DNA from: Poseidonia sp.
Lineage (GTDB): Archaea; Thermoplasmatota; Poseidoniia; Poseidoniales; Poseidoniaceae
Length of the DNA: 42,390 nucleotides
Assembly: GCA_023254355.1 (NCBI GenBank)
Contig: JALRLR010000002.1
Location: 1-42,390 of the forward strand
Reading direction: 5' to 3'
The notes under the pieces were generated by a model. The model did no database searches and had not been told where the DNA came from. It saw only the letters and a list, made by a program, of their open reading frames with translations. This document shows, piece after piece, positions 1,985 through 39,746 of the stretch; position 1 is the first letter of the stretch; every line of letters starts with the position of its first letter. The position numbers and the translations under genes are program-made.

Positions 1985-2144
1985 TGCGTCATCGAACCGA
2001 ACGGCATTCTTTATGACCCGTCGTCCGTAGTTGGACTTCCCATGGAGGTCAAGGGAGTGTCCAATCTTAACCAACCCGCACGAAAGCCCGCCGCCTGTTC
2101 TCCGCACAGGCCACGAATTACAACGCCTGTCGGAGGTCGCATGC

Positions 2145-5782: not shown

Positions 5783-5786
5783 TTCA

Positions 5787-6518: not shown

Positions 6519-6521
6519 ACC

Positions 6522-15963: not shown

Positions 15964-17991
15964 TTATCCGTGCCGACCGAAGTGATGGTCCAAACTGTCA
16001 ACCGGTATCCGGAGGGAGGTCGGTCGACCGTGAACGCACGCCCAAGGGTTGGGAATGCGGCGCATATCATCGAGCAGGCGTCGCATTTCTGCAAGCGTCA
16101 GTGGTTGGTTGGCTTTCACCGCACCGCGGCAAGCGTTCATGAATGCCATGTGGTCCTTCCGGGCCTCGATCGTTTCCAACGGTCCACCGTCTTGCGATAA
16201 ATCCTGGAGAAGGTCGAGGAAGAAAGGACGAATTTCTTGGCCATGCAACAATCGGGGTGATGCGGTGAGATGCCAGTCTTCTTGCTGACGGACGAGGTGA
16301 AAGCCGAGCGAGTGAAGCCGCTCAAGTTGCGCATCCACGATGGCGGATTGTCGAGGGTCCAAGCCAAGATTGAGGGGGTCAAGTCGCTGTTGAGGCTCCC
16401 ACGCTTGTCCGCTGTTGCGTAACCGTTCGTACCGAACCCGTTCATGCAAGGCGTGCTGGTCAATGAGCAGCAATTCGTCTTCTGCCTGAACGAGAATGTA
16501 GGAGTTTGCAAATTGAGCCAGTGGTTCCATCGGTGGTAATTCGTTCAGCACACCCGTCAACGGGTCCTCTTGACTTGGCATCGAGGTGGTGGCCTTGCCG
16601 GCGTAGCGATGCAGGTGGCGTTCGGCCGAAGACAGATGGTCAGCCATGGGTTCCGTACTTTGGTCGGGGAGGACGGCTTGACCCAGTGGCGAGGCGGAAA
16701 CGGGTCGTGATGCAGTGGGTTCCTCAGGTTTCGTCGCTTCTTCTCCCACCAAGTTGAGTTGTTTTCCTGCGGCCACGGCCCATGCAGGCGGGGCGGCGAC
16801 GGCCTTTGTCTCAACGCTCGGTTGGAGGTTCAAGCCTGCGGCCGAATGGAGCGGGAGGGCTGGCTCGTGATCCTTCGTCGCTATCGTTGGTTCTCCGGCC
16901 AACAACGAGGCCACCGATGCGGTGGCCTCAGCGGTTGCCAACCCGCGCAATTCGGGGATGCCACCGGTGGCGTCAGGTTCGGTCGGTACGGATTCCAGGG
17001 TGTAGGCAATCGCCCGCTCAAGACGCTCCAAGACCCTCCACGAGTGGCGTAGTCGAACCTCCCGCTTAGTGGGGTGCACGTTGACGTCAACTTCGTTTGG
17101 TGGGCAGGTGAGGTTGATGACGGCCAAGGGGTGGCGTCCCTGCATCAGGCGGGTCCGGTAGCCCCGACGAATCGCTTGCAAAAACGGTCCAGCCGCAACG
17201 GGACGGTTGTTGATCAGGACGTGGATATCGTCCCCTTTCCCTCGGGTGATGTCGGGTGTGCTGATCCATCCATTCCAACGCTCATCCCCGGGCGCGTCGT
17301 TGTCCGAGGGAGGTTGTTCCAACGGAATCAGCTCGGTGGCTTGGGCGCCCATGATGTCGTACAGGCGGTCGAGCATGTCGTCCGTGGCCGGGACATTGAG
17401 CAGGGTGCGTTCGACGGATTTGAGGTGAAACCCGCATTCCGGGTGGGCAAGCGCATGATTCACCACCACGTCAACGATGCGCGCCGTTTCGGTTTCGGGC
17501 CGCCGTTGGAACGCTAAGCGGGCGGGGGTGTTTTGGAACAAATGTTCCACGCTGATTCGCGTGCCGTCGTGCATGCCGACGGGTTGGACCGGCGATTTGA
17601 CGCCGTCCTCCATCACGATGCTGGCGCCGGCTGCACCGGGCGGTTGGCTGGCCACGGTCAATTTCGAGACCATGCCAATGCTGGCCAGGGCTTCTCCCCG
17701 GAACCCAAGTGACACGATGGAGGCCAAATCTTCCTTGGTGCTGAGTTTGGAGGTGGCGTGACGGTCCAACGCCAAGGGGAGGTCATCAGCGGTGATGCCG
17801 CTGCCGTTGTCTTCAACCACGAGGCGGTCAAAGCCCCCGTTTTCCACCAGAACGGTAATGGCGGTGGCGCCAGCATCGAGGCTGTTTTCCACCAGTTCTT
17901 TGACCACTTGCGCTGGACGTTCAACCACTTCTCCGGCCGCAATGTGGCCGATGGTCGCATCGTCCAATTGGACGATTCGTTGAGGTTTCAT
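15964..17991 (-). CDS. mutL: DNA mismatch repair protein MutL (endonuclease-motif type)
   Basis: N-terminal GHKL ATPase 'IAAGEVVERPAQVVKELVENSLDAG'. C-terminal 'DQHALHERVRYERL' matches the DQHA(x)2E(x)4E endonuclease motif. 'ACVHGRPT' is CPHGRP-like. Its start overlaps the mutS stop by 4 nt. Confidence 0.92.
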   Translation of the reverse strand: MKPQRIVQLDDATIGHIAAGEVVERPAQVVKELVENSLDAGATAITVLVENGGFDRLVVEDNGSGITADDLPLALDRHATSKLSTKEDLASIVSLGFRGEALASIGMVSKLTVASQPPGAAGASIVMEDGVKSPVQPVGMHDGTRISVEHLFQNTPARLAFQRRPETETARIVDVVVNHALAHPECGFHLKSVERTLLNVPATDDMLDRLYDIMGAQATELIPLEQPPSDNDAPGDERWNGWISTPDITRGKGDDIHVLINNRPVAAGPFLQAIRRGYRTRLMQGRHPLAVINLTCPPNEVDVNVHPTKREVRLRHSWRVLERLERAIAYTLESVPTEPDATGGIPELRGLATAEATASVASLLAGEPTIATKDHEPALPLHSAAGLNLQPSVETKAVAAPPAWAVAAGKQLNLVGEEATKPEEPTASRPVSASPLGQAVLPDQSTEPMADHLSSAERHLHRYAGKATTSMPSQEDPLTGVLNELPPMEPLAQFANSYILVQAEDELLLIDQHALHERVRYERLRNSGQAWEPQQRLDPLNLGLDPRQSAIVDAQLERLHSLGFHLVRQQEDWHLTASPRLLHGQEIRPFFLDLLQDLSQDGGPLETIEARKDHMAFMNACRGAVKANQPLTLAEMRRLLDDMRRIPNPWACVHGRPTSLRIPVDSLDHHFGRHG

Positions 17992-20639
17992 TGGCCGTCC
18001 TCCGAGAGCGATTTGAGTTGGTACAGCACCTCAAGGGCTTGGCGAGGGGACAACTCATCGACGTTCGTGTTGTTGAGCACATCGATCAATTCCTTGCCAA
18101 CGGGTTCCACTTCGTCGACGGGTGCGTTGGACGTCATGGCGGCTGCAGCAAAATACCCCATGAGGCTCGCTTGCCCCGCATCGCGTGCCTTGGGGGCGCC
18201 TTGCTCACCGGCTTTGGCGCCACCGGCCTGCTGTTCAAGGAACGCCAGTAAATCCGTTGCTCGTTCAACCACGTTCCGGGGTAAACCCGCCAAAGCCGCC
18301 ACTTGAACACCGTAGGAATCGTCACACGGGCCGTCTGCCACTTGATGAAGAAACTTCAGCTGCCCGTCGACTTGAGCGACCTGAACGTGGACGTTGTGCA
18401 AACCGGGCAGTTCGCCTTCCAGGCCGATCAACTGGTGGTAGTGGGTCGCGAAGAGGGTCCGGGCGCCAAGCCGCTGGCAAATGTCTTCGGTGACCGACCA
18501 GGCAATGGAGAGGCCATCAAAGGTCGATGTCCCTCGGCCAATTTCGTCCAGCAAGATGAGGGATTGGGGGGTGGCCCTTTTGAGAATGTGTGCCACTTCA
18601 ATCATCTCCATCATGAAGGTTGAACGGCCACGGCGAAGGTCGTCACTGGCACCGACGCGAGTGAAAATGCGGTCGACCAAACCGATTTTTGCTTGCTTTG
18701 CAGGGACAAAGCACCCTGCTTGGGCCAAAACGGTCACCAGCGCTGTCGTTCGAAGGTGGGTGGATTTCCCTCCCATGTTCGGCCCGGTGATGAGCAAAAA
18801 GGAGTGTTTTGAGTTCATGGTAACATCGTTAGGAACGTAGCCATGCATGGTTTCCAAAACGGGATGGCGAGCATCAACCAGCGACAACACGGGGTTGTCC
18901 GAAAGGTCGGGTTTGGTCCATTGGCGTTCCCTTGAAACGGTTGCAAAGCATTGGAGGACATCGATGGCAGCGACGCGCCGAGCAATATCGGCCAATTCAC
19001 TTGCCTGCTGGGTGCAATAGGCCCTTAATTCCAAGAACCGCCGGTACTCGAGTTCTTTCAACTTCGAATCAGCGGTCAAGAGGACATCGTCCCGTTCGAT
19101 CAGTTCCGGCGTGGTGTAACGGGAACCGTTTGTGAGTTGTTGCTTACGATGCCAAGATTCCGGCACTTTGTCCACATTTGCCTGGGTCACTTCGATGTAC
19201 CACCCCACTTGGCGATTGTTCTTGACCTTCAACGATGGAATGTTCAATTGTTGACGCAACTCGGATTCAAGCTTGGTGAACCAGGCCTTTCCTTCGGAGG
19301 ACACCTCTCTCAAGGCATCCACTTCTGGGTCGACTCCCGTTCTAAGCAGCCCACCGTCACGGAGCCCAAGCGGGGGGTTGTCCGCCAGCGTGGCGTTGAT
19401 CATTTGTGCCGTTTCGCTCAAGGCGTCGAGGTTCGTGCTCAACAAGTCCAAGAGCGGGTCGTTGGTCTCTTGACACCAACCGATCAAGGCTGGCATTCGG
19501 TCCAAGGCCTCGGCGGTTGCCAAAAGGTCCCTCGCATTGCTGCGCTGATAGGCGAGTTGGGTTGCAAGTCGTTCCATGTCGCGTATGCCCTTCAAAGAGG
19601 TGCGCAAGCCATCCAATCGGCGAGCGGATTTGGCCAAGGTACCGACCGCCCGGTGTCGAGTTTCAATCGAGGCCTGGTCGGCCAATGGGTGAAGGAGCCA
19701 TGTTTTCAAAACACGACGTCCCATGGCGGTTCTGCACTTGTTGAGGGTCGAGAGCAGACTGCCCTCATATTCGCCTGCGAGGGTTGAGGTGAGTTCTAAA
19801 TTTCGAAGCGTGGTTTGGTCGATGAGCAATCGGCCATGTTCTTCAATCACTTCCACATCCTGAAGCGGGATGTCGCTCTGAAGATGAACGGAGGCGAGGT
19901 AATCGGCCGCAAGGCCGGTCGCTGAAAGGGCTAGAGGAGCGTGGTCCAAGTCAAGATGGCCCAAATCCGCTACCTCGAGCATGCTTTGCAGCCGTTGCAA
20001 TCGCTTGGATTCGCTCAGGGTATGTTGACTCACCATCGTTTGGTCGAGCAACAGGAACAAACGCCCCAGAGCTTCGTTTTCTGCATCCCTCGGCGAGACG
20101 ACAAGTTCGTTTGGCTGCCATCGCTGCAAATCGTCCTGTAGCCTGATGAACCGGTCTGCACCTTCGTGCGTGCTGGCCCACGCCTTTCCCGTCGAGGCGT
20201 CGATCACGGCGACGCCCAATTGGTCGCTTCCGAGAGCGACCGCTCCCAACAGGGATTGTTCGTCAACGTCGAGCAAACTTTCCTCAAACAAGCTTCCCGG
20301 CGTGTAGACGCGGGTGACAACTCGCTCGAGCAACTTCGCTCCTTCTCGGAGTTCTTCCTCCTGCTCGGCCACGGTGACCTTGTATCCCGCCCTGAGCATG
20401 GTGCGGAGATGGTCCTCCAGGCCGTGCCAAGGAAAGCCAGCCATGGGCACGGGTTCCTCAGCGTTTTTGTCCCTGGAGGTCAGGGTCAGTCCCAACACTT
20501 CGGCAGCGGTTTCGGCGTCGTCGTGAAAGAGTTCGTAAAAGTCGCCCATTCGGAAGAAAAGCACGGTGTCGGGGTGTTGTTCTTTGATGTCAAAGAACTG
20601 GTCCATCATGCCCCGTTTTGCGATTGTCTTCACCTCCAT
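17988..20639 (-). CDS. mutS: DNA mismatch repair protein MutS (bacterial MutS1 type)
   Basis: 'FFRMGDFYELFHDDAE' mismatch-binding N-terminus, Walker A 'ITGPNMGGKST', 'LLDEIGRGTSTFDGLSIA' and 'LFATHYH'. Confidence 0.95.
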   Translation of the reverse strand: MEVKTIAKRGMMDQFFDIKEQHPDTVLFFRMGDFYELFHDDAETAAEVLGLTLTSRDKNAEEPVPMAGFPWHGLEDHLRTMLRAGYKVTVAEQEEELREGAKLLERVVTRVYTPGSLFEESLLDVDEQSLLGAVALGSDQLGVAVIDASTGKAWASTHEGADRFIRLQDDLQRWQPNELVVSPRDAENEALGRLFLLLDQTMVSQHTLSESKRLQRLQSMLEVADLGHLDLDHAPLALSATGLAADYLASVHLQSDIPLQDVEVIEEHGRLLIDQTTLRNLELTSTLAGEYEGSLLSTLNKCRTAMGRRVLKTWLLHPLADQASIETRHRAVGTLAKSARRLDGLRTSLKGIRDMERLATQLAYQRSNARDLLATAEALDRMPALIGWCQETNDPLLDLLSTNLDALSETAQMINATLADNPPLGLRDGGLLRTGVDPEVDALREVSSEGKAWFTKLESELRQQLNIPSLKVKNNRQVGWYIEVTQANVDKVPESWHRKQQLTNGSRYTTPELIERDDVLLTADSKLKELEYRRFLELRAYCTQQASELADIARRVAAIDVLQCFATVSRERQWTKPDLSDNPVLSLVDARHPVLETMHGYVPNDVTMNSKHSFLLITGPNMGGKSTHLRTTALVTVLAQAGCFVPAKQAKIGLVDRIFTRVGASDDLRRGRSTFMMEMIEVAHILKRATPQSLILLDEIGRGTSTFDGLSIAWSVTEDICQRLGARTLFATHYHQLIGLEGELPGLHNVHVQVAQVDGQLKFLHQVADGPCDDSYGVQVAALAGLPRNVVERATDLLAFLEQQAGGAKAGEQGAPKARDAGQASLMGYFAAAAMTSNAPVDEVEPVGKELIDVLNNTNVDELSPRQALEVLYQLKSLSEDGQ

Positions 20640-20733: not shown

Positions 20734-21993
20734 TTAAGCGGGACGGCGCCATTCAACGATTGCATGGCGGAGCATCGAAGCCATGACGATGCTGCCGACG
20801 ATCAAGTAGAGCAGGTTTAAGAATCCCCGACCGCTCTCTATAGAGCCATTGGCCGTGATGTCAATGGACCATTGGATTGGCTCACCGTTTTCGTTGGTTC
20901 CGTGGACATGGATGTGGTCGGCTTCGGCCCCAACAGCGCTGATGTCAACGGGCAACGGTCGTCCGAGCACGTAGGTGCTGAGTTCCCCGTCGTAGGTTAA
21001 AATCGTCGTGCTGCCCGCTTCTCCGATGAACCAAGCTCGCCCCTCACGGTCGCCGATGACTTGCGAACTACGCACATCAAGGGCTTCAACGTCGTTCAAG
21101 CCGTGAATCAAGAGGCTTTGACCGGTGCCCCCTACCACCACGGTTTCGCCGACCGACGCCATGCTGTGGAACACCCCGCTGTCAAAAGTCTGGACTTTGC
21201 TGACGACCGGGGTGTTGGGCGTTCCATCCCACGCAATCCAGCCCAAAACGGGCCGGGCTTGGGGCGATGCTGGGCTCGAGCCGTCGGCACCAGCGGTGCT
21301 GAAGTGGGTTCCCAGGGCCAGCCAAAGTCCTTCCTCGTACGCCTCAATTTGGTGCCATTGCACACCAAGCGACATCGACATGGGGTGAGTCGGCGTCATC
21401 CCGGAGACCCCACGTACCGACGTGTTGGCGCCTTCTTGGGTAAGCAGAAGTCGATGGGTTTCCCCGCTGCTGGTGTGTTCGGCGACGTCGAGCACCGCAA
21501 ACACGCCGTTTGTGTCAGGATACTCGTAGGTGATCATCGTGTTACCGCTGAGGCCGATGACCTGGTTGTTGTCAACGGCAAACACCACTTCGCCGTCGGG
21601 CATGGTTTTGACAAACCGAACGTCAGCGGCCCTGTCCACCGTGTCAGGGCTGTAGATGTTGGTCACGGTGTTGTCACCAAAGTTTTGGGTGAAAAAGTGG
21701 TAACCTGCATCGGGCGCGTACACCACGGCCGTGTAGGCATCGGACTGCGAGTGGTAGGCGATTTGGGTCACCAGGCCGCCTTCGTATTCAGCGTCGATGT
21801 CCACCACGGAGGCGCCGACGAAATGTTCGGTCGCACCAATCGCAAACGCTCCAATGAGGACGAAGACGAAAAAGACGGCGATGGAAAGCCACTGGTGCTC
21901 GGATTCCTCCTCCAAGAACCGCCGCCAGCCACCAGCCATGCATCGGGGTGGGCACCTCGCATCATGAAGACTTTGCCCGTGGCTTCTTCTCAT
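20734..21993 (-). CDS. Hypothetical protein with N- and C-terminal TM anchors flanking a beta-rich (propeller-like) domain
   Basis: TM segments 'WLSIAVFFVFVLIGAFAIGA' near the N-terminus and 'LNLLYLIVGSIVMASML' at the C-terminus. The middle is beta-strand-like and repetitive. An alternative ATG lies at 21939. Confidence 0.5.
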   Translation of the reverse strand: MRRSHGQSLHDARCPPRCMAGGWRRFLEEESEHQWLSIAVFFVFVLIGAFAIGATEHFVGASVVDIDAEYEGGLVTQIAYHSQSDAYTAVVYAPDAGYHFFTQNFGDNTVTNIYSPDTVDRAADVRFVKTMPDGEVVFAVDNNQVIGLSGNTMITYEYPDTNGVFAVLDVAEHTSSGETHRLLLTQEGANTSVRGVSGMTPTHPMSMSLGVQWHQIEAYEEGLWLALGTHFSTAGADGSSPASPQARPVLGWIAWDGTPNTPVVSKVQTFDSGVFHSMASVGETVVVGGTGQSLLIHGLNDVEALDVRSSQVIGDREGRAWFIGEAGSTTILTYDGELSTYVLGRPLPVDISAVGAEADHIHVHGTNENGEPIQWSIDITANGSIESGRGFLNLLYLIVGSIVMASMLRHAIVEWRRPA

Positions 21994-22653: not shown

Positions 22654-22705
22654 GATGTGCAGGTGAAACAAAATAGCATTGACGACAGGAAGGTTTGGTG
22701 ATTGC

Positions 22706-24484
22706 ATGCGTGTTGCCGTCTTGAAGGAGGACAATTGTCAACCCAAGAAGTGCAACGACGAGTGCCATGACTTCTGCCCACCGGTTCGAAACGGGCAGGA
22801 ATGCATCGTCATGGACGACCAAACGGGAAAGCCGCACATCTCCGAAAGCCTCTGCATCGGTTGCGGTATTTGCATCAACAAGTGCCCGCATGACGCGCTC
22901 ATCATTGAGAATCTCCCCAGTGAGCTGGAAACCGACATGATTCATCGCTATTCCATGAACGGGTTCCGGTTGTTCCGACTCCCAACGCCCTCCAAAGAGA
23001 GTGTCGTCGGCATCCTCGGGCCGAACGGCATGGGTAAATCCACGGCCATCAGCGCCCTTTCCGGTCGCTTGATTCCCAATTTGGGTGATTGGTTGAATCA
23101 AGAGCCCGACTGGGACGACGTGATTCAGTCGGTGCCCAAAGGAGAATTACGCGATTTCTTCATCGCTGTTCAACAAGGCGATGTCAAGGTGGCGGTGAAG
23201 CCGCAAAACGTGGACCGACTCCCCAAGCGGGTGAAGGGTACCGTCAGGGACCTTCTTGCCCGTGTGGATGAACGCAAGATGCTTGACGACATGACGCAAC
23301 GTCTCGGGATTGCTCATTTGTTGGACCGGGAAGTCCACCAGTTGTCGGGTGGCGAATTGCAGCGAATGGCCATTTGTGCGACCATTCTGAGGGACGTTGA
23401 CGTCTACTTCTTTGACGAACCGTCGTCGTATCTTGATATTCACGAACGCATGCGTATCGTCCGAATCATCCAGGACCTCGCCCAAACCAAGCGGGTGATC
23501 GTGATTGAGCACGACCTCGCTGTGCTGGATGTGTTGGCCGACCTGGTCCACATCGTCTACGGGAAGAAGGGGGCGTTTGGAATCTTCACCCCCGCTCGTT
23601 CCACGCGTCAAGCCATCAACACCTATCTCGACGGGTTCTTGCCAGAAGAGAACGTCCGCATTCGGAACAAACCCATCAAGTTCTTGCGCCATCAAGACCG
23701 GGTCGCAGAAATCGGTACGCCGGTGGTCCAATGGGGTGACCTTTCAAAGCAACTGGGTGACTTTCAATTGACGGCGTCAGAAGGGGCGGTCCATCGGAGC
23801 GAAGTGGTGGGGGTGGTCGGAGCAAACGGCACCGGGAAGTCCACCATGATCAAAATCTTGGCTGGGGAACACGAATACGATGAAGGATGGGTCACGGCAG
23901 AAGCGACCATCTCCTACAAGCCCCAACACATCGACGTTGACATTGATGGCTCCGTTCAGCTTTGGCTTGACAGTGAATTGGGCCCAAGATGGCGCAGCGG
24001 AGAGTTCCATGTCAACGTGATCAAAGCGCTTGGAATTGATCAACTTCTTCCCAAACGCGTCAAGAAATTGTCGGGCGGTGAGCGGCAAGCCGTCTCCATC
24101 GCCCTTTGCTTGGGAAGGGAAGCCGACCTTTACTTGCTCGACGAACCTTCAGCCCACCTTGACGCCAGTGCTCGTATGGAGGCGGCGAAGGCGATACGAC
24201 GGACCATGGAAGCGAATGAAAAGTCCGCTTTTGTCATTGACCACGACGTGTATTTCATTGACATCGTCTCGGATTCCCTCCTGGTGTTTGAAGGTCAAGG
24301 AGGTGTTGAGGGCAAGGCCACGGGACCCTTTGATCTGCGAACGGGCATGAATCAGTTCCTGTCTGGAGTGGACGTGACGTTCCGTCGCGACCACGATTCT
24401 CGCCGTCCCCGAATCAACAAGAGCGAAAGTCGAAAGGACCGAGAACAACGAACGAGTGGTGACTATTATTCCTACGATGCTTGA
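22706..24484 (+). CDS. abcE1: ABCE1 / RNase L inhibitor-type ribosome recycling ATPase
   Basis: N-terminal Fe-S domain 'CQPKKCNDECHDFCPP..CIGCGICINKCP', two ABC cassettes ('GPNGMGKST', 'GANGTGKST') and 'LSGGELQR' / 'LSGGERQ' signatures. I prefer ATG 22706 over the TTG at 22679. Confidence 0.95.
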   Translation: MRVAVLKEDNCQPKKCNDECHDFCPPVRNGQECIVMDDQTGKPHISESLCIGCGICINKCPHDALIIENLPSELETDMIHRYSMNGFRLFRLPTPSKESVVGILGPNGMGKSTAISALSGRLIPNLGDWLNQEPDWDDVIQSVPKGELRDFFIAVQQGDVKVAVKPQNVDRLPKRVKGTVRDLLARVDERKMLDDMTQRLGIAHLLDREVHQLSGGELQRMAICATILRDVDVYFFDEPSSYLDIHERMRIVRIIQDLAQTKRVIVIEHDLAVLDVLADLVHIVYGKKGAFGIFTPARSTRQAINTYLDGFLPEENVRIRNKPIKFLRHQDRVAEIGTPVVQWGDLSKQLGDFQLTASEGAVHRSEVVGVVGANGTGKSTMIKILAGEHEYDEGWVTAEATISYKPQHIDVDIDGSVQLWLDSELGPRWRSGEFHVNVIKALGIDQLLPKRVKKLSGGERQAVSIALCLGREADLYLLDEPSAHLDASARMEAAKAIRRTMEANEKSAFVIDHDVYFIDIVSDSLLVFEGQGGVEGKATGPFDLRTGMNQFLSGVDVTFRRDHDSRRPRINKSESRKDREQRTSGDYYSYDA

Positions 24485-24517: not shown

Positions 24518-26284
24518 ATGCCGGTCGGACTTCCATCACGAGGCGGCCCCATGGGACGAACACGTGGACGTCTTTCGGCGAGCGCCTTGACCACGTACCT
24601 GCGTTGCCCCCGTCAGTGGCTCTTGGGTTACCAAGCCGGCCTTTCGGGGCCGACTCGAACACCGCAAATTCTTGGAGTCGTTCTGGAGGAAGCCCTCTGC
24701 TCCTTGATGATGCATCACCCTCCTGCCGATGTTGCCGGTCGGGAAGACCTGGTGGCATGGGCTGAACCTCATGTGGACCGCTTGGTGGCGGCGGCACTGG
24801 ACGAGGGAAAGGAGGCGTGGGAGGCCAGCTTATGGAAAGCCGACGGAGAATCATGGGCTGATGTTGAGGTTGACGACGTAAAGGGCCGCCTGCTCGGAGG
24901 CCTCTCGCTGTTTTTGGACGAAGTTGAAGCCTGTCATGCTGCGGGAGGCGGTCCATACCTTGACGCCCACCGACGAGGCGAGCAACCGTTCACGGTACCG
25001 GCTCCCTGCTGGGGCTCTGAACCTGTTTTTCCCCTTCCCGAGAAAGTCCCCGACGTTGCCTTGAGACGATGGGATGCCCCTGAAACAGCCACCTGGTCGT
25101 TACCCGGCGAGCCCGTTTGCTGGAACGAGGCGTGGGAATGCGCTCGCCCTTGGTTCAAGGACCCGAGGGTTCACCAGCCTCAGCGGTTGTATCATCCCGA
25201 AGATTGGGCCTCGGGTGAACTCGACCTGGTGTTGCGTTGGGACGGAAACGTTCGAATTGTGGACATCAAATCGGGACGTTCCTCCTCCCCGTTCGCCTCC
25301 TCATTGGAGCATCAACTCCGCTTCTATGCTTGGCTTTGGCACGAGACCCATGACGGTGAAGTCGCTGCTGGGATGGCTGGCTGGTACCTCAATGGGGCCG
25401 AACAGGTGGTTTACGCCCCGCCAACTTCAGACGATATGGTTGGTTTGACCGCCGAATACGCCTCGGTTCACGAAGCCATGCAGTCCATGGTTGAGGGGGT
25501 CATTCCCTTTCCACCTGGCTCTGAAGATGCTTGCAACGCCGACCAAGCCGGATGCGGTTGGTGTGCGGTTTGTTTTGACGAACAGGGCGCATGGTCAGGG
25601 CCCGATCGACTGGCGTGGATGAAGGCGCTGCCAGAAGTAAGTCTTCACTCACCTTATCAACCGCTTCACTCGATTCAGGGTCGAGTGGCCGTTCGTGGAA
25701 GGTTAACCGGTGCATGGGGGCCCATGCCGAACCATTTTGGAGAACCGGTGTTGGGGGCGGTGTTGGTCGTCGGTCAGCAACACATCACGCTTGAAGAGAG
25801 CGAGCCGGGAAGTTTTCCCAACCTTCACGCCTTGCTTGAGAGGGAGGTGGTTCTGCTCGATGCCATGCCAGGTGTGTGGCGTGACCAACCCCGTTTGTAC
25901 GTGGACCAGCGGTCAACCCTCGTTCTTGATGGCGATGAACCCTCTTCATCGGTTGAAGCGAATTTCACCCGTCTGGGGCTTCTGCGAACACGGGCGAACG
26001 TTCAGGGATACGTGTTGTCGCTCTCACGACGCTCGGGAATTCGCGTTGATGGAAAACCTTGGTCGATGGTCTCGTTCATCCTCTGGGACGGTCAACACCT
26101 TGCCGAAACGGTCGCTTTCGGGTCCAGCATCTCCCAACGCCTGCTGGAGTTGATGCCAGGAGACTGCGTCGCCATGACCGGTGTTGAGATCGGTTGGCGG
26201 GGAGGGATTCTGCAACTGAGAATTGACAACCGGAAGACCCGTTTGGAAACCCCACGGACTAAGGAGTCAAACCCCTCTCGGTAG
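24518..26284 (+). CDS. Cas4/Exo5/AddB-like Fe-S PD-(D/E)XK nuclease domain fused to two putative OB folds (paralog A)
   Basis: Residue numbers follow the ORF-track translation (ORF 24515..26284, i.e. +1 versus this feature's ATG 24518). 'LSASALTTYLRCPRQW' carries the N-terminal Cys. 'GELDLVLRW..VRIVDIKSG' gives the D...D-x-K motif and 'QLRFYAWLW' the QxxxY motif. The C-terminal Cys cluster is C340, C347, C350, C353 ('C..CGWCAVC'). Residues ~385-575 show two RPA-like OB patterns, 'VAVRGRLTGAWGP..' and 'NVQGYVLSLSRRSGIRVDGKPWSMVSFILWDGQH..MPGDCVAMTGVEIGWRGGILQLRI'. GAGGTGG SD 4 nt upstream of ATG 24518. Confidence 0.7.
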   Translation: MPVGLPSRGGPMGRTRGRLSASALTTYLRCPRQWLLGYQAGLSGPTRTPQILGVVLEEALCSLMMHHPPADVAGREDLVAWAEPHVDRLVAAALDEGKEAWEASLWKADGESWADVEVDDVKGRLLGGLSLFLDEVEACHAAGGGPYLDAHRRGEQPFTVPAPCWGSEPVFPLPEKVPDVALRRWDAPETATWSLPGEPVCWNEAWECARPWFKDPRVHQPQRLYHPEDWASGELDLVLRWDGNVRIVDIKSGRSSSPFASSLEHQLRFYAWLWHETHDGEVAAGMAGWYLNGAEQVVYAPPTSDDMVGLTAEYASVHEAMQSMVEGVIPFPPGSEDACNADQAGCGWCAVCFDEQGAWSGPDRLAWMKALPEVSLHSPYQPLHSIQGRVAVRGRLTGAWGPMPNHFGEPVLGAVLVVGQQHITLEESEPGSFPNLHALLEREVVLLDAMPGVWRDQPRLYVDQRSTLVLDGDEPSSSVEANFTRLGLLRTRANVQGYVLSLSRRSGIRVDGKPWSMVSFILWDGQHLAETVAFGSSISQRLLELMPGDCVAMTGVEIGWRGGILQLRIDNRKTRLETPRTKESNPSR

Positions 26285-26316
26285 TCTTCAAAAGGGGTGG
26301 ATTTTATCCCCCTTCC

Positions 26317-28170
26317 ATGCCAGTCCATCGTGCAAACCCTGCCACTGACCGAGTGGGGCCATACAACCGACTGTCAGCAAGTCAGGCGAACACCTACAAT
26401 GCTTGCCCACGGCTTTGGTACTACCAACGCGTGTACCGATTCAAAATGCCTCAAATCCCGGTGCTGTTCGTTGGTCGGGCGGTCGAGGAGGCGTTGTGCC
26501 GGGTCTTGCGTGATTCGCCTTCTCTGGTTGTCGGAACGGCACCGGCTGATGTTCTCGGACCAAGTCCATACACCGAAGACGGCGTTCCGGTCCCCAGGGA
26601 TGAGGCCACATGGCCAGCCCATGCCCTGATGCCGTTGTTTCCGCATGAGCGGCCCGATTCCTTGGAGTCGCTGGAAGCTTGGGCCTTTGAGCGCTGCGCC
26701 GTCCACCTCCCGCCATCGCTTGAACGTGCCAAAGAGGTATGGCAGAACGATGAGCGTCGTGCCGGGGATTGGGATGAAGTCGACCCCGAAGCCTGTTTGG
26801 CGATGGTCAAGGCTGGCGTGCGTTTCCATCTCGCCGAGGTTGAACGATGCTTTGGCAACGGAGGGGGGCCCTTCTTGGAGTCATGGCGCCTTGGGGAGCG
26901 TCCTGCTCACCCTTCGCCCGATGGATTTCCGTTTGAGCCGTTCACCTCCCGCCATCCGTTGGCTGCCGATGGAGACGTGACGTGGTTTGAGGCATGGGAA
27001 CTCGCTCGTCCGTGGTTTGTTGACCCCGACGCCCCCGGGTTCACCATGAACGCCATTCACCCCGAACATTGGTTTCAAGGTGAATACGATTTGGTGTATC
27101 GTTGGTCTGGAAAGACGGTGATTGTCGACATCAAAGCCAGTCTCGGAGCGAACGACCGTTCGGGCGATTACGTGACACAAATGAAAGATTATGCCATGCT
27201 TTGGTACGTGACCCACGGACGAAACGAAACGGTTGACGGTTTGGAAATTTGGTACCTCAAACACCCCAGCATCAAGCATGTAGAGGTCCCCACCACGGAT
27301 GAGTTGTTGGCCATTGAAGCCGAGCTGGAATCGATGTGGCAACGTCTTCGTGCCTCAACCCCTTCATTGGAGGCCTGCCCTCCTCAACCCGCACCCATGA
27401 GAGGCTTTGCGCCCGGCGGTGTTGCCACCGAGGCCCCCGAGCAAACGCGTTGCTCCGTCTGTGATTGGCAGGCCATCTGTCCCGGTGGAAACGGTCCAGA
27501 ACGTGTGAACCTTCCAACCACCTACCAACTTCCAGGCTCGCTTCAATCCATGTCCATCGAGCCCATTGGGCCGTTGAATCCACGCATCACGGTTCGCGGC
27601 GAACTGTTCAGCGTGGGACGGGCCTCGGGCAATCGACCTCAAACGATGACGCTTCACCAAGGTCCTCACGCAGCTCAGATTCAAGTGGTGGCCACGAACG
27701 ACAGCGATGGGAGTCCAACCGTGACCGTCGCGCCGGTCAAGGGTCAAGCCGTGTTGGTCCGAGATGCGGTGTTCACCGTGAATTGGAAAGGAGAAATCGT
27801 GTTGAAAATTGACCCGATGGCTCGGGTTGAAGCGGATCAAGGCCCCCACCCGCCCTCAAGCAGTTTGTTTGACGTGCCTGCCAAACACAACATCGGTGGC
27901 ATGGTGATTTACACCTACGAAAAGAACGGGGTCGGAAAAACCGGCAAACGCTGGTCGCGCAAAGGCATGATGATCATGGATTCATCCGGGGCCACGAAAG
28001 TCGAAGGTTGGGCTGATGATTGGAATCCACAGTACGATTTGGCTGAAGTGGGCGACGTGGTCGTCCTCGCCAACGTCGGTTTGGACGCATGGGCAAGCGA
28101 GGTCCGTGCTGATTATACCCGAAATTCAACGCTGCAAATTGTCGCCCGGGTTGATCGGTCAACCGCCTGA
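26317..28170 (+). CDS. Cas4/Exo5/AddB-like Fe-S PD-(D/E)XK nuclease domain fused to two putative OB folds (paralog B)
   Basis: Collinear with paralog A. 'LSASQANTYNACPRLW', 'GEYDLVYRW..TVIVDIKAS' and 'QMKDYAMLW'. Canonical 'CSVCDWQAIC' (C-x2-C-x5-C). C-terminal OB-like segments 'ITVRGELFSVGRASG..' and 'IGGMVIYTYEKNGVGKTGKRWSRKGMMIMDSSGATKVEGW..VGDVVVLANVGLDAW'. Starts 32 nt after paralog A. Confidence 0.7.
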   Translation: MPVHRANPATDRVGPYNRLSASQANTYNACPRLWYYQRVYRFKMPQIPVLFVGRAVEEALCRVLRDSPSLVVGTAPADVLGPSPYTEDGVPVPRDEATWPAHALMPLFPHERPDSLESLEAWAFERCAVHLPPSLERAKEVWQNDERRAGDWDEVDPEACLAMVKAGVRFHLAEVERCFGNGGGPFLESWRLGERPAHPSPDGFPFEPFTSRHPLAADGDVTWFEAWELARPWFVDPDAPGFTMNAIHPEHWFQGEYDLVYRWSGKTVIVDIKASLGANDRSGDYVTQMKDYAMLWYVTHGRNETVDGLEIWYLKHPSIKHVEVPTTDELLAIEAELESMWQRLRASTPSLEACPPQPAPMRGFAPGGVATEAPEQTRCSVCDWQAICPGGNGPERVNLPTTYQLPGSLQSMSIEPIGPLNPRITVRGELFSVGRASGNRPQTMTLHQGPHAAQIQVVATNDSDGSPTVTVAPVKGQAVLVRDAVFTVNWKGEIVLKIDPMARVEADQGPHPPSSSLFDVPAKHNIGGMVIYTYEKNGVGKTGKRWSRKGMMIMDSSGATKVEGWADDWNPQYDLAEVGDVVVLANVGLDAWASEVRADYTRNSTLQIVARVDRSTA

Positions 28171-28359
28171 TGAGATGGTGGTCACCAACAATTCAACCGA
28201 AGCGGTGAGCGGCGTGGCGTGGGGCAGCACCGTGCCTTCGAAGCTGACGATGACCATTGACGGTAGCCAGGGCGTACCTTGGAGGGCTTCTCGGACGGTG
28301 GTCCCGGGCTCAACCGAGACGGTGTGTTCGCCTTCTCTTCCATGGAAGCGTATGTCCAT
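28159..28359 (-). CDS. Small beta-grasp ubiquitin-like protein (ThiS/MoaD/SAMP-like) ending in Gly-Gly
   Basis: The internal ATG (plus-strand CAT at 28357-28359) of ORF 28159..28482 gives 66 aa: 'MDIRFHGREGEHTVSVEPGTTVREALQGTPWLPSMVIVSFEGTVLPHATPLTASVELLVTTISSGG*'. Length, the 'pGtTVreaL' segment and the terminal GG fit ThiS/MoaD-type proteins. The longer ORF version would run through the tRNA gene. Confidence 0.5.
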   Translation of the reverse strand: MDIRFHGREGEHTVSVEPGTTVREALQGTPWLPSMVIVSFEGTVLPHATPLTASVELLVTTISSGG

Positions 28360-28500: not shown

Positions 28501-28980
28501 TCAACGGACCCAGGTGGTTTGAACAATCTCGCCGTCAAAGTCCCTCTTCGTTGTGGGGTGCCACCCCTCGGGGAGGTCGGCCCCCAGCGTGCCAAACAAA
28601 GGGATGCCGTTGGTGAGCGTCACTGGAATTTTGGTGATGACGATGGTGTCGATGAGCCCCGCTTCAAGGAGACTTGCGTTGAGGTGACCTCCGCCAAGCA
28701 ACCAAATGACGCCTCCTGGTTTATTTTTCAGGGAATGGACCAGGTCCTCTGCACGGCCCGATTGGCGTGAGCACACGTGGCGGTCGTACGCTTCAAAGGG
28801 GTTCTCTTCGAGCGTTTGAGCAACCTCCCAGGTTCGTCGTCCCATCACCACGCAATCCACCGTTCTCATGAAGGCCTTCATCCCGAAATCTTCCACTTCG
28901 TTCGGTTGAGGAAGCCAGTCCAATCCATCGTCCTCGGTGGCGATGAATCCGTCTTCGCTGGTGGCGATGTGCAACACCAT
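28501..28980 (-). CDS. Dihydrofolate-reductase-like / RibD C-terminal domain family protein
   Basis: 'MVLHIATSEDGFIATEDDGLDWL', 'VVMGRRTWE' and 'VIWLLGGGHLNASLLEAGLIDTIVITKIPVTLTNGIPLF' fit the DHFR-fold deaminase-reductase family. I prefer ATG 28980 over the TTG at 28998. Confidence 0.65.
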   Translation of the reverse strand: MVLHIATSEDGFIATEDDGLDWLPQPNEVEDFGMKAFMRTVDCVVMGRRTWEVAQTLEENPFEAYDRHVCSRQSGRAEDLVHSLKNKPGGVIWLLGGGHLNASLLEAGLIDTIVITKIPVTLTNGIPLFGTLGADLPEGWHPTTKRDFDGEIVQTTWVR

Positions 28981-29007
28981 TGGTCGCTGGGAGGTCAAAG
29001 CACCAAC

Positions 29008-38891: not shown

Positions 38892-39746
38892 ATGCCGCCG
38901 AAGAACGAAGTGGACCTCGACCCGCAAGAACAAGCCCTCCTCCGTGAATGGAGGCAACTGGTGACCGAACACTACGTTGAGGACATCAAGCACCTGGAAG
39001 GCAACCCCGACATCATTCACGGGTTTGAAGTCGAACACGCCATCATTGCCAAGTACGATACCTTGCGCACCGAGTTCCACTTGCGACCCACCATCGTGCT
39101 CCAGTTGGGCACACGGGTGATGAGGGAGCAGTTTGACGAACACATGGTCCGCATGCGCCCTGTGATTCGTGTCGTGGGGCTTGACGAGATGTACCGGCGA
39201 CGCATTGACTCGTTGCGCATGCGCGACCGCAATAAGGTGGTCAGCTTAACCGTCAAAATCAACCACGTTTTCCCACCCTACGGCTGGGTCCAACTTGCGG
39301 TGTACGAATGCAGGGATTGCGGGGATTCCGCTGAAATCAAGCAACGACGGGCGCGTGAACGAGAGAGTCCCGTTCGGTGCGAAACATGCATGGCCAACTT
39401 TTTCGAACGCCTTGAAAACGGGGATGACAATCTGCCCATTCGCCCTCCTCGTCCCAATTTTGTGATGTCGACGGAACATTCCAACTACGAAGACGTGCAG
39501 GACTTGAGCATCTGTCAGGTGGCGTTGAACGAGGACAATCATGTGTTGCACACCTCGGTCAAGGACGACCTCATCGCCACGGTCTCCGACGACCTCGTCG
39601 GTGAGGTTGAGGTCGGGATGTTTGCTCGAATCAACGGCATCGTGCGGGTTCAGCCCTTCCCCAATCGGACCTTCTCAAAGGACACACGGCGAGTCCTCGC
39701 ACTGGACGTCTTGAGCATTGAGCCCATCGATGTTGAGGAGATGTAG
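38892..39746 (+). CDS. Stand-alone MCM N-terminal-domain-like protein (helical subdomain, C4 zinc ribbon, OB fold; no AAA+ module)
   Basis: 'KVVSLTVKINHVFPPYGWVQLAVYECRDCG...VRCETC...FVMSTEHSNYEDVQDLSICQ...DDLVGEVEVGMFARINGIVRV' follows the order of MCM N-terminal subdomains. No Walker A anywhere. The stop lies 1 nt from the convergent tyrS stop. Confidence 0.6.
   Translation: MPPKNEVDLDPQEQALLREWRQLVTEHYVEDIKHLEGNPDIIHGFEVEHAIIAKYDTLRTEFHLRPTIVLQLGTRVMREQFDEHMVRMRPVIRVVGLDEMYRRRIDSLRMRDRNKVVSLTVKINHVFPPYGWVQLAVYECRDCGDSAEIKQRRARERESPVRCETCMANFFERLENGDDNLPIRPPRPNFVMSTEHSNYEDVQDLSICQVALNEDNHVLHTSVKDDLIATVSDDLVGEVEVGMFARINGIVRVQPFPNRTFSKDTRRVLALDVLSIEPIDVEEM

What the first reader, a model, noticed from the sequence alone, without database searches (positions are those of the whole stretch)
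24518..28170. Tandem paralogous Fe-S Cas4/Exo5-like nuclease::double-OB fusion proteins: a candidate two-subunit ssDNA nuclease with no known partner genes
SEEN: two same-strand ORFs (589 and 617 aa in the ORF track) lie 32 nt apart and share a collinear motif set. The shared motifs are 'LSAS..TY..CPR.W', 'G..(V/L)EEALC', 'GGGP(Y/F)L', 'EAWE.ARPWF.DP', 'HPE.W..GE.DLV.RW.G...IVDIK' and 'Q...YA.LW'. Each also has a C-terminal Cys cluster. In A this is C340/C347/C350/C353. In B it is the canonical C379-x2-C382-x5-C388. ESTABLISHED: a D...(D/E)-x-K motif, a QxxxY motif, one N-terminal Cys and three C-terminal Cys together mark the 4Fe-4S branch of PD-(D/E)XK nucleases (Cas4, the AddB nuclease domain, eukaryotic Exo5). 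Both copies keep the catalytic residues. SEEN: the last ~200 aa of each protein contain two segments with the strand pattern of RPA-type OB folds. Compare the RPA gene at 2145-3839 in this same window. INFERENCE: they form a heterodimeric, ssDNA-tethered Fe-S nuclease. At ~360 aa, the nuclease module is much larger than a minimal Cas4 and closer to Exo5 in size. I see no CRISPR array, cas1/cas2, helicase or HerA/NurA-type ATPase nearby. It would therefore be a Cas4-family enzyme working outside CRISPR adaptation, for example in end resection, flap processing or an unrecognised defence role. The pair sits between abcE1 and a tRNA-Ser gene.
Basis: partly seen in the sequence, partly recalled or inferred. 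Interest (0 to 1): 0.85.

Follow-up and report, generated by a model that had tools for sequence, protein, structure and literature searches.

The report
Paired iron-sulfur nuclease–OB-fold fusion genes
Two neighbouring, related genes of a marine Group II archaeon (Poseidonia) each fuse a Cas4/RecB-type iron-sulfur DNA nuclease to two RPA-like single-strand-binding domains; this uncharacterised pair is kept side by side in every relative examined and is probably a housekeeping DNA-end or flap-processing enzyme, not a CRISPR or defence part.

Summary
Genes A (24518-26284) and B (26317-28170) are true full-length paralogues (BLASTP E 3e-42). Both pass Pfam PDDEXK_1. In ~133 orthologues of each, the catalytic E/D…D-x-K and Q…Y residues and four cluster cysteines are essentially invariant. 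AlphaFold models (pLDDT 86-88, pTM 0.82-0.86) plus Foldseek show that the last ~200 residues of each are a tandem OB fold of the RPA70 DBD-A/B type. The N-terminal ~350-390 residues align with phage RecB/Cas4-family exonucleases.

The pair is a core feature of Poseidoniales. A sat directly upstream of B in all 79 species-representative loci with enough upstream DNA, always downstream of ABCE1, with short gaps. Every full-length relative is clearly A-type or B-type. The only outgroup is a rare, partly planctomycete-labelled single-gene family with one OB.

It is not Cas4 proper: it falls below the model cut-offs and there is no CRISPR or cas context. It has no helicase and matches no Exo5 model. 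It was absent from viral contigs and from the literature I could search.

The heterodimer idea is plausible but untested. My best reading is a constitutively expressed, two-nuclease, self-tethering ssDNA processing enzyme, a new variant of a known kind.

The parts
24518..26284 (+). Gene A: 588-aa Fe-S PD-(D/E)XK nuclease fused to a tandem OB fold (A-type paralogue)
   Evidence: ORF. Start ATG 24518 with a GAGGTGG box upstream. Pfam PDDEXK_1 E 5.2e-20. 281 homologues at E<=1e-3. AF2 pLDDT 87.7, pTM 0.86.
24569..25576 (+). A nuclease domain (model residues ~10-345): N-terminal Cys helix, helical insertion, PD-(D/E)XK core, C-terminal Cys cluster
   Evidence: Pfam match in two stretches. Secondary structure from AF2. 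hhalign against the outgroup family, probability 100.
25217..25327 (+). A catalytic motifs: GELDLV…IVDIK (E226, D228, D241, K243, numbering from nt 24542) and QLRFY (Q258, Y262)
   Evidence: E226, D228, D241 and K243 are each 133/133 in A orthologues. Q and Y are invariant in alignment A2.
25532..25564 (+). A C-terminal cluster cysteines: C340, C347, C350 of the 589-aa ORF (C331/C338/C341 in model numbering). The N-terminal ligand C31 is at 24605-24607.
   Evidence: 126/133, 132/133 and 130/133 conserved. The fourth Cys of the window protein (C353) is not conserved.
25685..26248 (+). A tandem OB folds (OB1 ~25685-25927, OB2 ~25991-26248)
   Evidence: All-beta barrels in the AF2 model. Foldseek PDB hits: RPA70 4gop_C E 9.5e-10, plus 1jmc, Teb1, HIN-200 and P. 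abyssi RPA. Many conserved W/F/R/K residues.
26317..28170 (+). Gene B: 617-aa Fe-S PD-(D/E)XK nuclease fused to a tandem OB fold (B-type paralogue)
   Evidence: ORF. Pfam PDDEXK_1 E 7.1e-13. 469 homologues at E<=1e-3. AF2 pLDDT 86.0, pTM 0.82.
26368..27486 (+). B nuclease domain (residues ~18-390), including a B-specific ~45-residue insert (res ~69-113)
   Evidence: BFVD Foldseek aligns ~400 columns to phage RecB-family/Cas4 exonucleases (A7XX28 E 5.5e-6; R4TI04 TM 0.60 normalised to the target).
27082..27192 (+). B catalytic motifs: GEYDLV…IVDIK (E256, D258, D271, K273) and QMKDY (Q288, Y292)
   Evidence: All six residues are 134/134 in B orthologues.
27451..27480 (+). B canonical C379-x2-C382-x5-C388 cluster motif. 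The N-terminal ligand C30 is at 26404-26406.
   Evidence: C379, C382 and C388 are 134/134. C30 is 131/131 among non-gap rows.
27583..28146 (+). B tandem OB folds (OB1 ~27583-27834, OB2 ~27883-28146)
   Evidence: AF2 strands. Foldseek 4gop_C E 6.1e-10, 1jmc, 8aaj. The sequence profile hits P. abyssi RPA OB at E 2.8e-4.
22679..24484 (+). ABCE1/RLI gene directly upstream on the same strand (33 nt before A's ATG): conserved context and probable co-transcription
   Evidence: Pfam ABC_tran, Fer4_RLI. The ABCE1→A→B order is kept in all loci, including the deep lineages L089 and L090. Measured gaps 8-99 nt.

Best explanation
A and B are two constitutively co-expressed, catalytically competent [4Fe-4S]-type RecB/AddB/Cas4-superfamily nucleases. 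Each carries its own pair of RPA-like OB folds.

Shown:
- The domain architecture.
- Conservation of every catalytic residue and every cluster residue in both paralogues.
- Strict tandem co-occurrence and an ancient duplication.
- A fixed core-genome position.

Inferred:
- The OB pairs grip single-stranded DNA and feed or position a free end or flap at the nuclease active site. In known members of the fold, that site sits beside the Fe-S 'staple'.
- The enzyme therefore trims ssDNA ends or flaps during chromosomal replication or recombinational repair in Poseidoniales. This would be a cis-tethered equivalent of the Dna2-RPA or EXO5-RPA partnerships.
- The two paralogues most likely work together as an A-B heteromer with two active sites. 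That follows the logic of the two-nuclease AddAB/AdnAB machines but without helicase modules, so any unwinding would be supplied in trans.

It is not part of CRISPR adaptation or of a mobile defence island.
For: - Paralogy over the full length: E 3e-42.
- PDDEXK_1 is above its cut-off in both proteins.
- E/D/D/K/Q/Y and the four Cys are ~100% conserved in 133 A and 134 B orthologues.
- The AF2 models are confident and their high pTM fits a compact multi-domain fold.
- The tandem OB matches RPA70 DBD-A/B, Teb1, POT1 and archaeal RPA with Foldseek probability 1.0. OB2 matches P. abyssi RPA by sequence profile at E 2.8e-4, with the RPA Trp column (RVVLW) aligned to an aromatic column.
- The nuclease part matches phage RecB/Cas4 exonucleases.
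- A lies immediately upstream of B in 79/79 informative species-representative loci, and also in the deepest lineages, where B is only 28-36% identical. In L090 the A stop overlaps the B start.
- A-B gaps are 16-118 nt.
- Every full-length relative among 1.84 billion representative proteins is clearly A-type or B-type.
- The neighbourhood is housekeeping, with no CRISPR, cas genes or repeats.
- No relatives were found in IMG/VR viral contigs.
- Precedent: EXO5 is an Fe-S ssDNA exonuclease whose 5'-3' polarity is enforced by RPA, and DNA2 is a related PD-(D/E)XK nuclease (PMC8710748).
Against: - No experiment exists and no multimer prediction could be run, so the A-B complex is inferred only from tandem conservation and paralogy.
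- The mirror-tree partial correlation for A-B (0.54) is no higher than for B-eIF2alpha (0.65).
- The substrate (DNA versus RNA), polarity and pathway are untested.
- No helicase or recombinase is linked.
- The only conserved same-strand neighbour is a translation factor (ABCE1), which gives no support for a DNA role.
- No PIP-box-like PCNA motif was found.
- The OB domains reach no Pfam threshold and show no direct BLAST similarity to the window's own RPA.
Confidence: 0.55

Rival explanations
1. A and B are subfunctionalised paralogues that act independently as monomers or homo-oligomers, for example with opposite polarity or different substrates. They stay adjacent only because they arose by tandem duplication in a genome with very stable synteny.
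For: - The whole 15-kb neighbourhood is syntenic across Poseidoniaceae, so adjacency alone is weak evidence for a complex.
- Both proteins keep complete active sites and complete OB pairs, so each looks self-sufficient.
- The single-gene outgroup shows that the module can work alone.
- The mirror-tree test did not single out A-B.
Against: - Adjacency, order and short gaps survive in lineages where the upstream context has been rearranged and B is only 28-36% identical.
- No genome examined has lost one copy.
- A stop/start overlap occurs in L090.
- A and B evolve at equal rates, with mean distances of 0.53 and 0.55.
Confidence: 0.25
2. The pair acts on RNA rather than DNA, as a single-strand RNA nuclease tied to ribosome recycling, mRNA surveillance or RNA processing. 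This would explain why it is embedded with ABCE1, L10e, PAC2, Nop10, eIF2alpha, S27e and L44e.
For: - ABCE1 is the only neighbour kept on the same strand, at 8-99 nt, in every lineage, even where MutS/MutL and L10e are no longer nearby.
- The flanking genes are all translation or RNP genes.
- OB folds of this type can bind RNA (general knowledge).
Against: - Every characterised member of the Fe-S branch that I know of (AddB, Cas4, Dna2, Exo5) is a DNase (Cas4 review PMC5704561; PMC8710748).
- The best structural and profile matches of the OB pair are ssDNA binders: RPA70 DBD-A/B, Teb1, POT1 and archaeal RPA.
- Archaeal 'superoperons' commonly mix translation genes with unrelated genes (general knowledge).
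Confidence: 0.1
3. It is a defence or CRISPR-related 'solo Cas4'-type or DruK-like nuclease.
For: - Weak hits to Cas4 and Druantia DruK models (PADLOC E 6.6e-9 to 1e-2; TIGR00372 27.9/20.4 bits).
- Some JGI records label orthologues 'Cas4 (RecB family)'.
Against: - Scores are far below the Cas4 cut-offs.
- There are no repeats or cas genes in the window.
- The position is fixed in the core genome in >80 species, not in a variable island.
- No viral homologues were found.
- The outgroup genes also sit in housekeeping contexts.
Confidence: 0.04
4. It is the excision nuclease of the bacterial-type MutS/MutL mismatch-repair system that Poseidoniaceae encode four genes upstream.
For: - mutL-mutS lie 4-5 kb upstream in the window and in all Poseidoniaceae loci.
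- MMR needs ssDNA exonucleases (general knowledge).
Against: - The mutS/mutL genes are on the opposite strand and separated from the pair by three other genes.
- In the deep lineages L089 and L090 the pair is kept but MutS/MutL are not in the neighbourhood.
Confidence: 0.06

Closest known systems
Pfam PF12705 PDDEXK_1 / COG2887 'RecB family exonuclease' (AddB-type and phage Cas4-like Fe-S nucleases)
   Same: Both proteins score above the family cut-off. They share the D…(D/E)xK and QxxxY motifs, one N-terminal plus three C-terminal cysteines, and structural alignment to phage RecB/Cas4-family exonucleases.
   Different: The nuclease module is ~350-390 aa rather than ~250-280, owing to a helical insertion. 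It is fused to two OB folds and occurs as an obligate tandem paralogue pair. The 2017 survey of PF12705 contexts describes UvrD and COG1205 helicase links and phage members, but the text I searched and the section I read contain no OB-fold fusion (PMC5704561).
CRISPR-associated Cas4 (TIGR00372 / PF01930; structures 4ic1, 4r5q)
   Same: Same superfamily fold and the same Fe-S plus RecB-motif arrangement. Among genuine nucleases, Cas4 gives the nearest solved-structure sequence hits (4ic1 E 0.027, 4r5q E 0.13-0.2).
   Different: Scores are far below the Cas4 cut-offs. There is no cas1/cas2 or array. The proteins are three times larger and carry OB domains.
AddAB / AdnAB two-nuclease end-resection machines
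   Same: Two different subunits are encoded side by side, each with a RecB-type nuclease, and an Fe-S 'staple' is present as in AddB.
   Different: There are no SF1 helicase or translocase domains at all. ssDNA handling would rely on OB folds, and no Chi-scanning module is present.
Eukaryotic Dna2 and EXO5 working with RPA
   Same: Both are Fe-S PD-(D/E)XK ssDNA nucleases whose action depends on RPA-type OB folds (Dna2 also has its own OB domain, from my own knowledge). RPA enforces EXO5's polarity (PMC8710748).
   Different: No Exo5 or Dna2 Pfam model is hit, and there is no helicase. Here the OB folds are fused in cis and the enzyme is duplicated.
Archaeal RPA / replication factor A (e.g. 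P. abyssi RPA 8aaj; the window's own RPA-like gene at 2031-3839)
   Same: The C-terminal tandem OB has the RPA DBD fold. OB2 matches the P. abyssi RPA OB by profile with the typical β1 'V-x-V-x-G-x-V' and 'D-x-x-G' pattern.
   Different: No Pfam OB family reaches its threshold. There is no zinc-ribbon OB and no direct BLAST similarity to the resident RPA.
Rare single-gene outgroup family (429-477 aa; e.g. P0426, 'hypothetical protein [Planctomycetes bacterium]')
   Same: It has the same enlarged nuclease with the same motifs and the canonical CxxCx5C, followed by an OB that aligns with OB1 (hhalign probability 100, E 2.4e-42).
   Different: It is a single gene with only one OB, lacks the extra conserved cysteines (B C61/C178), and has no ABCE1 context.

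Membership tests
PD-(D/E)XK superfamily, PDDEXK_1 (PF12705) | Profile score above the curated gathering threshold | tested here: met
   A scores 72.9 bits and B 49.5 bits against a cut-off of 22. Divergent orthologues and the outgroup also pass.
PD-(D/E)XK superfamily, PDDEXK_1 (PF12705) | Catalytic D…(D/E)-x-K plus the QxxxY motif | tested here: met
   B: E256, D258, D271, K273, Q288 and Y292 are 134/134. A: E226, D228, D241 and K243 are 133/133, and Q258/Y262 are invariant.
Fe-S branch (AddB / Cas4 / Dna2 / Exo5 type) | One N-terminal Cys plus three C-terminal Cys (canonical C-x2-C-x5-C) | tested here: met
   B has C30 plus C379-x2-C382-x5-C388, all ~100% conserved. A has C31 plus C340-x6-C347-x2-C350 (altered spacing) in Poseidoniaceae, and canonical spacing in deep A-type lineages.
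Fe-S branch (AddB / Cas4 / Dna2 / Exo5 type) | Actual binding of a [4Fe-4S] cluster | not testable with these tools
   This needs purified protein (UV-vis at ~410 nm, EPR).
Cas4 (CRISPR adaptation nuclease) | Score above the TIGR00372 / PF01930 cut-offs | tested here: not met
   TIGR00372: 27.9 and 20.4 bits against 65. PF01930: 12.2 bits against 22.7 for A, and no hit for B.
Cas4 (CRISPR adaptation nuclease) | Genomic association with cas1/cas2 and a CRISPR array | tested here: not met
   No tandem repeats in the 42-kb window. No cas domains among the window genes or in the related loci inspected.
Exo5 | Sequence match to the Exo5 family profile | tested here: not met
   The Pfam-A scan at E<=1 returned only PDDEXK_1 and, for A, Cas_Cas4. 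The nuclease-only profile found no Exo5 chain in the PDB at E<=10.
AddAB / AdnAB / RecBCD helicase-nucleases; Dna2 | SF1 helicase/translocase domain(s) fused to the nuclease | tested here: not met
   No helicase or P-loop family in the Pfam scans. The AF2 models consist of nuclease plus two OB barrels only.
RPA-type OB fold (ssDNA-binding domain) | Five-stranded OB barrel(s) structurally matching RPA DBDs | tested here: met
   Foldseek against RPA70 4gop_C gives E 6.1e-10 (B) and 9.5e-10 (A). 1jmc, 8aaj, Teb1 and POT1 also match, at probability 1.00.
RPA-type OB fold (ssDNA-binding domain) | Sequence-profile membership | tested here: inconclusive
   The A1 profile hits P. abyssi RPA at E 2.8e-4 for OB2 only. 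No Pfam OB family reaches its threshold. A divergent orthologue gives tRNA_anti-codon at 25.1 bits against a cut-off of 27.
RPA-type OB fold (ssDNA-binding domain) | ssDNA binding | not testable with these tools
   This needs EMSA or fluorescence anisotropy on the isolated C-terminal halves.
   79/79 informative GTDB species loci, plus the deep lineages.
   No multimer prediction was available. The mirror-tree surrogate was non-discriminating.

The most novel reading that the evidence does not exclude
A-B is a helicase-free, self-tethering two-nuclease 'resectosome'. In this reading, four OB folds hold the unwound strands while two Fe-S nucleases cut strands of opposite polarity. This would make it the functional counterpart of AddAB/RecBCD or Dna2-RPA in the abundant marine Group II archaea. 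It would have been assembled from a rare one-OB nuclease that today is otherwise seen only in a few, partly planctomycete-labelled, sequences. Alternatively, its order-wide operon link to ABCE1 could reflect a real coupling between ribosome recycling and nucleic-acid cleavage.
Probability: 0.15. Interest if true: 0.75.

Novelty: new variant of a known kind. Interest (0 to 1): 0.55.

Why it matters
Poseidoniales (Marine Group II) are among the most abundant archaea in the surface ocean. They are uncultured, and I found no paper describing their DNA-end processing enzymes.

This pair is a universally retained, lineage-defining component with a domain combination I found described nowhere: a Cas4/AddB-type Fe-S nuclease fused to two RPA-like OB folds, duplicated into two always-adjacent genes.

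If it is an end- or flap-processing enzyme, it shows a third way to couple ssDNA handling to an Fe-S nuclease: OB folds in cis, rather than a fused helicase (AddAB, Dna2) or free RPA in trans (EXO5). It also gives a compact, expressible target for biochemistry.

It is a further clear example of a Cas4-family enzyme recruited to a non-CRISPR, core-genome role.

Tried and rejected
1. Single-sequence PDB searches of A and B found nothing meaningful.
2. A nuclease-only profile (A4) against the PDB gave only sub-threshold Cas4 hits (4ic1 E 0.027, 4r5q 0.2, 9iac 0.089), ranked behind spurious designed-repeat proteins. There were no AddB, Dna2 or Exo5 hits.
3. In the Foldseek PDB lists, all 50 rows shown for each model are OB proteins, so the nuclease domain's PDB neighbours could not be read. 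The BFVD search supplied the nuclease-domain matches instead.
4. A mirror-tree / partial-correlation test for A-B co-evolution gave r = 0.96 and partial r = 0.54. B-eIF2alpha gave 0.65, so the test does not discriminate and I draw nothing from it.
5. My automated gap measurement gave artefactual values (~1.8 kb) for the ABCE1-A gap in 8 loci and a negative A-B gap in 1 locus. In the ~1.8-kb cases the tblastn coordinates suggest intact ABCE1-A adjacency, so I attribute them to partial ABCE1 matches rather than inserted genes; the loci were not individually inspected.
6. PADLOC and PHROGs gave only generic Cas4/DruK/exonuclease hits.
7. The IMG/VR scan found no relatives.
8. The sigma-70 promoter and intrinsic-terminator scan is not informative for an archaeon.
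9. A PIP-box regex search found no motif.
10. BLAST of B's OB region against the window's own RPA found no similarity.
11. Literature searches for the family, for Cas4-OB fusions and for Poseidoniales repair nucleases found no description.
12. MutS/MutL linkage was considered and downgraded, because it is lost in lineages L089 and L090.

Full report
**1. Observation**

- A opens at TTG 24515. Its orthologues begin MPVG…, so the start is ATG 24518. A GAGGTGG Shine-Dalgarno-like box lies 5-11 nt upstream. A ends at 26284.
- B runs from 26317 to 28170 (617 aa). The A-B gap is 32 nt.
- The two proteins align end to end, C-terminal halves included, with BLASTP E 3e-42 and 26% identity. They are real paralogues, not a chance resemblance.

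**2. Nuclease half**

- Both proteins exceed the Pfam PDDEXK_1 threshold (72.9 and 49.5 bits against 22). The match comes in two stretches separated by an insertion.
- Cas4 models are hit only weakly. TIGR00372 gives 27.9 and 20.4 bits against a cut-off of 65. PF01930 gives 12.2 bits against 22.7 for A only.
- No Exo5, Dna2 or helicase family appears.
- I aligned 133 A-type and 134 B-type full-length orthologues.
  - The acidic/lysine triad and the preceding Glu are invariant: B E256/D258/D271/K273 and A E226/D228/D241/K243 (A numbered from nt 24542).
  - Q…Y is invariant in the B set (Q288/Y292) and in the 52-sequence A/B alignment.
  - B keeps C30 plus the canonical C379-x2-C382-x5-C388 in all sequences.
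- A keeps C31 plus C340, C347 and C350 (ORF numbering).
  - Deep-branching A-type proteins still show the canonical C-x2-C-x5-C, so the C-x6-C-x2-C spacing is a derived Poseidoniaceae state.
- Neither paralogue is a degenerate scaffold.
- Additional conserved cysteines (B C61, C160, C178; A equivalents of C61 and C178) have no counterpart in the outgroup. They remain unexplained.

**3. Structure**

- With 52-sequence alignments, AlphaFold2 gave confident models. B has pLDDT 86.0 and pTM 0.82; A has pLDDT 87.7 and pTM 0.86.
- Each model has three parts: an alpha/beta nuclease region with a long helical insertion, a short linker, and two all-beta barrels.
- In the Foldseek PDB search, all 50 rows shown for each model are tandem-OB proteins. 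They include RPA70 DBD-A/B (4gop_C at E 6e-10 and 1e-9; 1jmc), Teb1-AB, POT1, P. abyssi RPA and HIN-200 domains, all at probability ~1.
- A sequence profile of the family independently hits the P. abyssi RPA OB at E 2.8e-4 to 6.4e-4, with the characteristic strand pattern. The RPA Trp column (RVVLW) aligns with an aromatic column in the A1 profile.
- Against predicted viral structures, the N-terminal ~400 columns align with phage RecB-family, COG2887 and Cas4 exonucleases (Thermus phage P23-45 at E 5.5e-6; HCTV-1 at TM 0.60 normalised to the target). The C-terminal part aligns with baculovirus LEF-3 and phage SSBs.
- The OB domains are rich in conserved aromatic and basic residues, especially in A.
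The 'Exo5-like size' remark is not supported: the extra length is a helical insertion that the outgroup family also has.

**4. Distribution and synteny**

- Both proteins have large orthologue sets (469 and 281 hits). These are labelled only 'PD-(D/E)XK nuclease family protein', 'hypothetical' or occasionally 'Cas4 (RecB family)', and come from Poseidonia, Poseidoniaceae, Poseidoniales or Thermoplasmatota MAGs.
- The window itself is ~95% identical to a Poseidonia sp. MAG contig (L006).
- A scan of one genome per GTDB species found 432 encoding stretches. The 80 best loci are all Poseidoniales, apart from one contig in a bin labelled Verrucomicrobiales.
- In every locus with enough upstream DNA (79 of 80), A lies directly upstream of B. 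The gene order is mutL←mutS←hyp | L10e→ABCE1→A→B | ←PAC2←Nop10←eIF2alpha.
- An exhaustive HMM search of 1.84 billion representative proteins returned 530 hits. Every full-length one is clearly either A-type or B-type, down to 28-35% identity, so the duplication predates the radiation of the group.
- In the most divergent lineages (L087, L089, L090; ABCE1 64-66% and eIF2alpha ~50% identical; GC up to 70%), the mutS/mutL/L10e block is gone. ABCE1→A→B…←PAC2←eIF2alpha persists, and in L090 the A stop overlaps the B start.
- A-B gaps are 16-118 nt (median 47). ABCE1-A gaps are 8-99 nt where my automated calls were sound.
- No relatives occur in IMG/VR viral contigs.
- The window has no tandem repeats or CRISPR array, no cas or helicase genes, and no Rfam hit other than the tRNA-Ser.

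**5. Origin**

- The only relatives outside the A and B clades are nine proteins of 429-477 aa. One is labelled as from a Planctomycetes bacterium, and one lies on a contig with bacterial-type genes (ATP-synt_I, FtsX). They are encoded as single genes in housekeeping contexts.
- They share the enlarged nuclease, all motifs and the canonical CxxCx5C. Their ~110-residue tail aligns with OB1 (hhalign probability 100, E 2.4e-42, coverage ending at B residue ~500).
- The simplest scenario is a one-OB ancestor shared with this small group, whose one source-named member is planctomycete. It then gained a second, RPA-like OB and underwent tandem duplication at the base of Poseidoniales. The direction of any transfer is not established.

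**6. Mechanism**

Shown:
- Two intact Fe-S-type RecB/Cas4-superfamily active sites.
- Four RPA-like OB folds in total.
- Obligate tandem retention.
- Probable co-transcription downstream of an essential gene.
- A core-genome rather than island location.

Inferred:
- The OB pairs bind single-stranded nucleic acid, most likely DNA, given that their best matches are ssDNA binders and that AddB, Cas4, Dna2 and EXO5 are DNases (PMC5704561; PMC8710748).
- The OB pairs deliver an end or flap to the adjacent active site.
- EXO5, whose polarity is set by RPA, and Dna2 (which by my own knowledge has its own OB domain) are functional precedents (PMC8710748). Here the RPA-like module is fused in cis.
- Two non-redundant, always-paired subunits recall the two-nuclease AddAB/AdnAB design. 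An A-B heteromer with two active sites is therefore my preferred model, but it is untested. I had no multimer prediction, and the mirror-tree surrogate was uninformative.
- The pathway (end resection, flap or fork processing, or mismatch excision) cannot be assigned from the context.

**7. Rivals**

- Independent subfunctionalised paralogues: about 0.25.
- An RNA-directed role linked to ABCE1 and the translation gene string: about 0.1. It is kept alive by the depth of the ABCE1 linkage.
- MutS/MutL-coupled excision: about 0.06. It is weakened by loss of linkage in the deep lineages.
- Defence or solo-Cas4: about 0.04. It is contradicted by the fixed core position, sub-threshold scores and absence from viruses.

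**8. Known or new**

- Literature searches found no description of this family or of a Cas4/RecB-OB fusion.
- The 2017 Cas4 phylogenomics paper discusses PF12705 members fused or linked to UvrD and COG1205 helicases and phage members. The text I searched and the section I read contain no OB fusion.
- No solved structure is a significant sequence relative of the nuclease half.
- I classify the pair as a new variant of a known kind. The catalytic and binding modules are familiar. The architecture, the obligate paralogue pair and the order-wide housekeeping status are not.
- Interest is moderate (0.55). It is an attractive and tractable biochemical target in an ecologically dominant, uncultured archaeal order. 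Its function is still inferred, and the component domains are ordinary.

Noticed in passing
window 28159-28359 (-): A 66-aa ORF ends in …SSGG*. It is convergent with gene B and overlaps its last 12 nt. Its orthologues in L004/L005 have a weak ThiS Pfam hit, and a ~66-aa gene is called immediately downstream of B in L003-L005, L089 and L090 (same strand as B in L089; homology between them not tested).
   Followed up: partly
window 20734-21993 (-): A 418-aa conserved hypothetical protein is encoded immediately upstream of mutS-mutL on the same strand. It has no Pfam, NCBIfam, PADLOC or PDB sequence hit. It is syntenic in all Poseidoniaceae loci (30-68% identity) and is a possible unknown partner of the bacterial-type mismatch-repair genes.
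   Followed up: partly
window 15964-20639 (-): Complete bacterial-type MutL (674 aa) and MutS (882 aa, domains I-V) genes are present in an archaeal genome and are conserved across Poseidoniaceae loci.
   Followed up: partly
It matches NCBIfam PRK07218 'single-stranded DNA binding protein' (E 6.7e-77, below the cut-off) and weakly matches solved Ta0387/SSB chains, so it is a divergent RPA/SSB.
   Followed up: partly
window 38892-39746 (+): A 284-aa protein matches only the MCM OB/zinc-ribbon region (Pfam MCM_OB E 2.3e-5), with no ATPase part. It is a stand-alone MCM N-terminal-like protein.
   Followed up: no
window 26317-28170 and 24518-26284 (B C61, C160, C178; A C62, C140 in ORF numbering): Extra cysteines outside the canonical four-Cys cluster are conserved in ~90-100% of orthologues but absent from the planctomycete-type outgroup. 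They could form a second metal site or a disulfide.
   Followed up: partly
L012 (NZEQ01000046.1): A contig in a MAG labelled 'Verrucomicrobiales bacterium' carries the typical Poseidoniales MutS-L10e-ABCE1-A-B-PAC2 block. This is likely bin contamination.
   Followed up: no
window 5201-7763 (+) and 12969-13460 (+): An archaeal type IV pilus/archaellum-like assembly set is present: two T2SSF-domain proteins and a T2SSE ATPase, plus an archaeal type IV pilin N-terminal domain protein a few kb away.
   Followed up: no
window 28501-28998 (-): A RibD_C-domain gene lies between B/tRNA-Ser and PAC2. It is present in only a few relatives (the window, L006, L038, L040, L042), so it is a small variable insertion in an otherwise rigid gene order.
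   Followed up: partly
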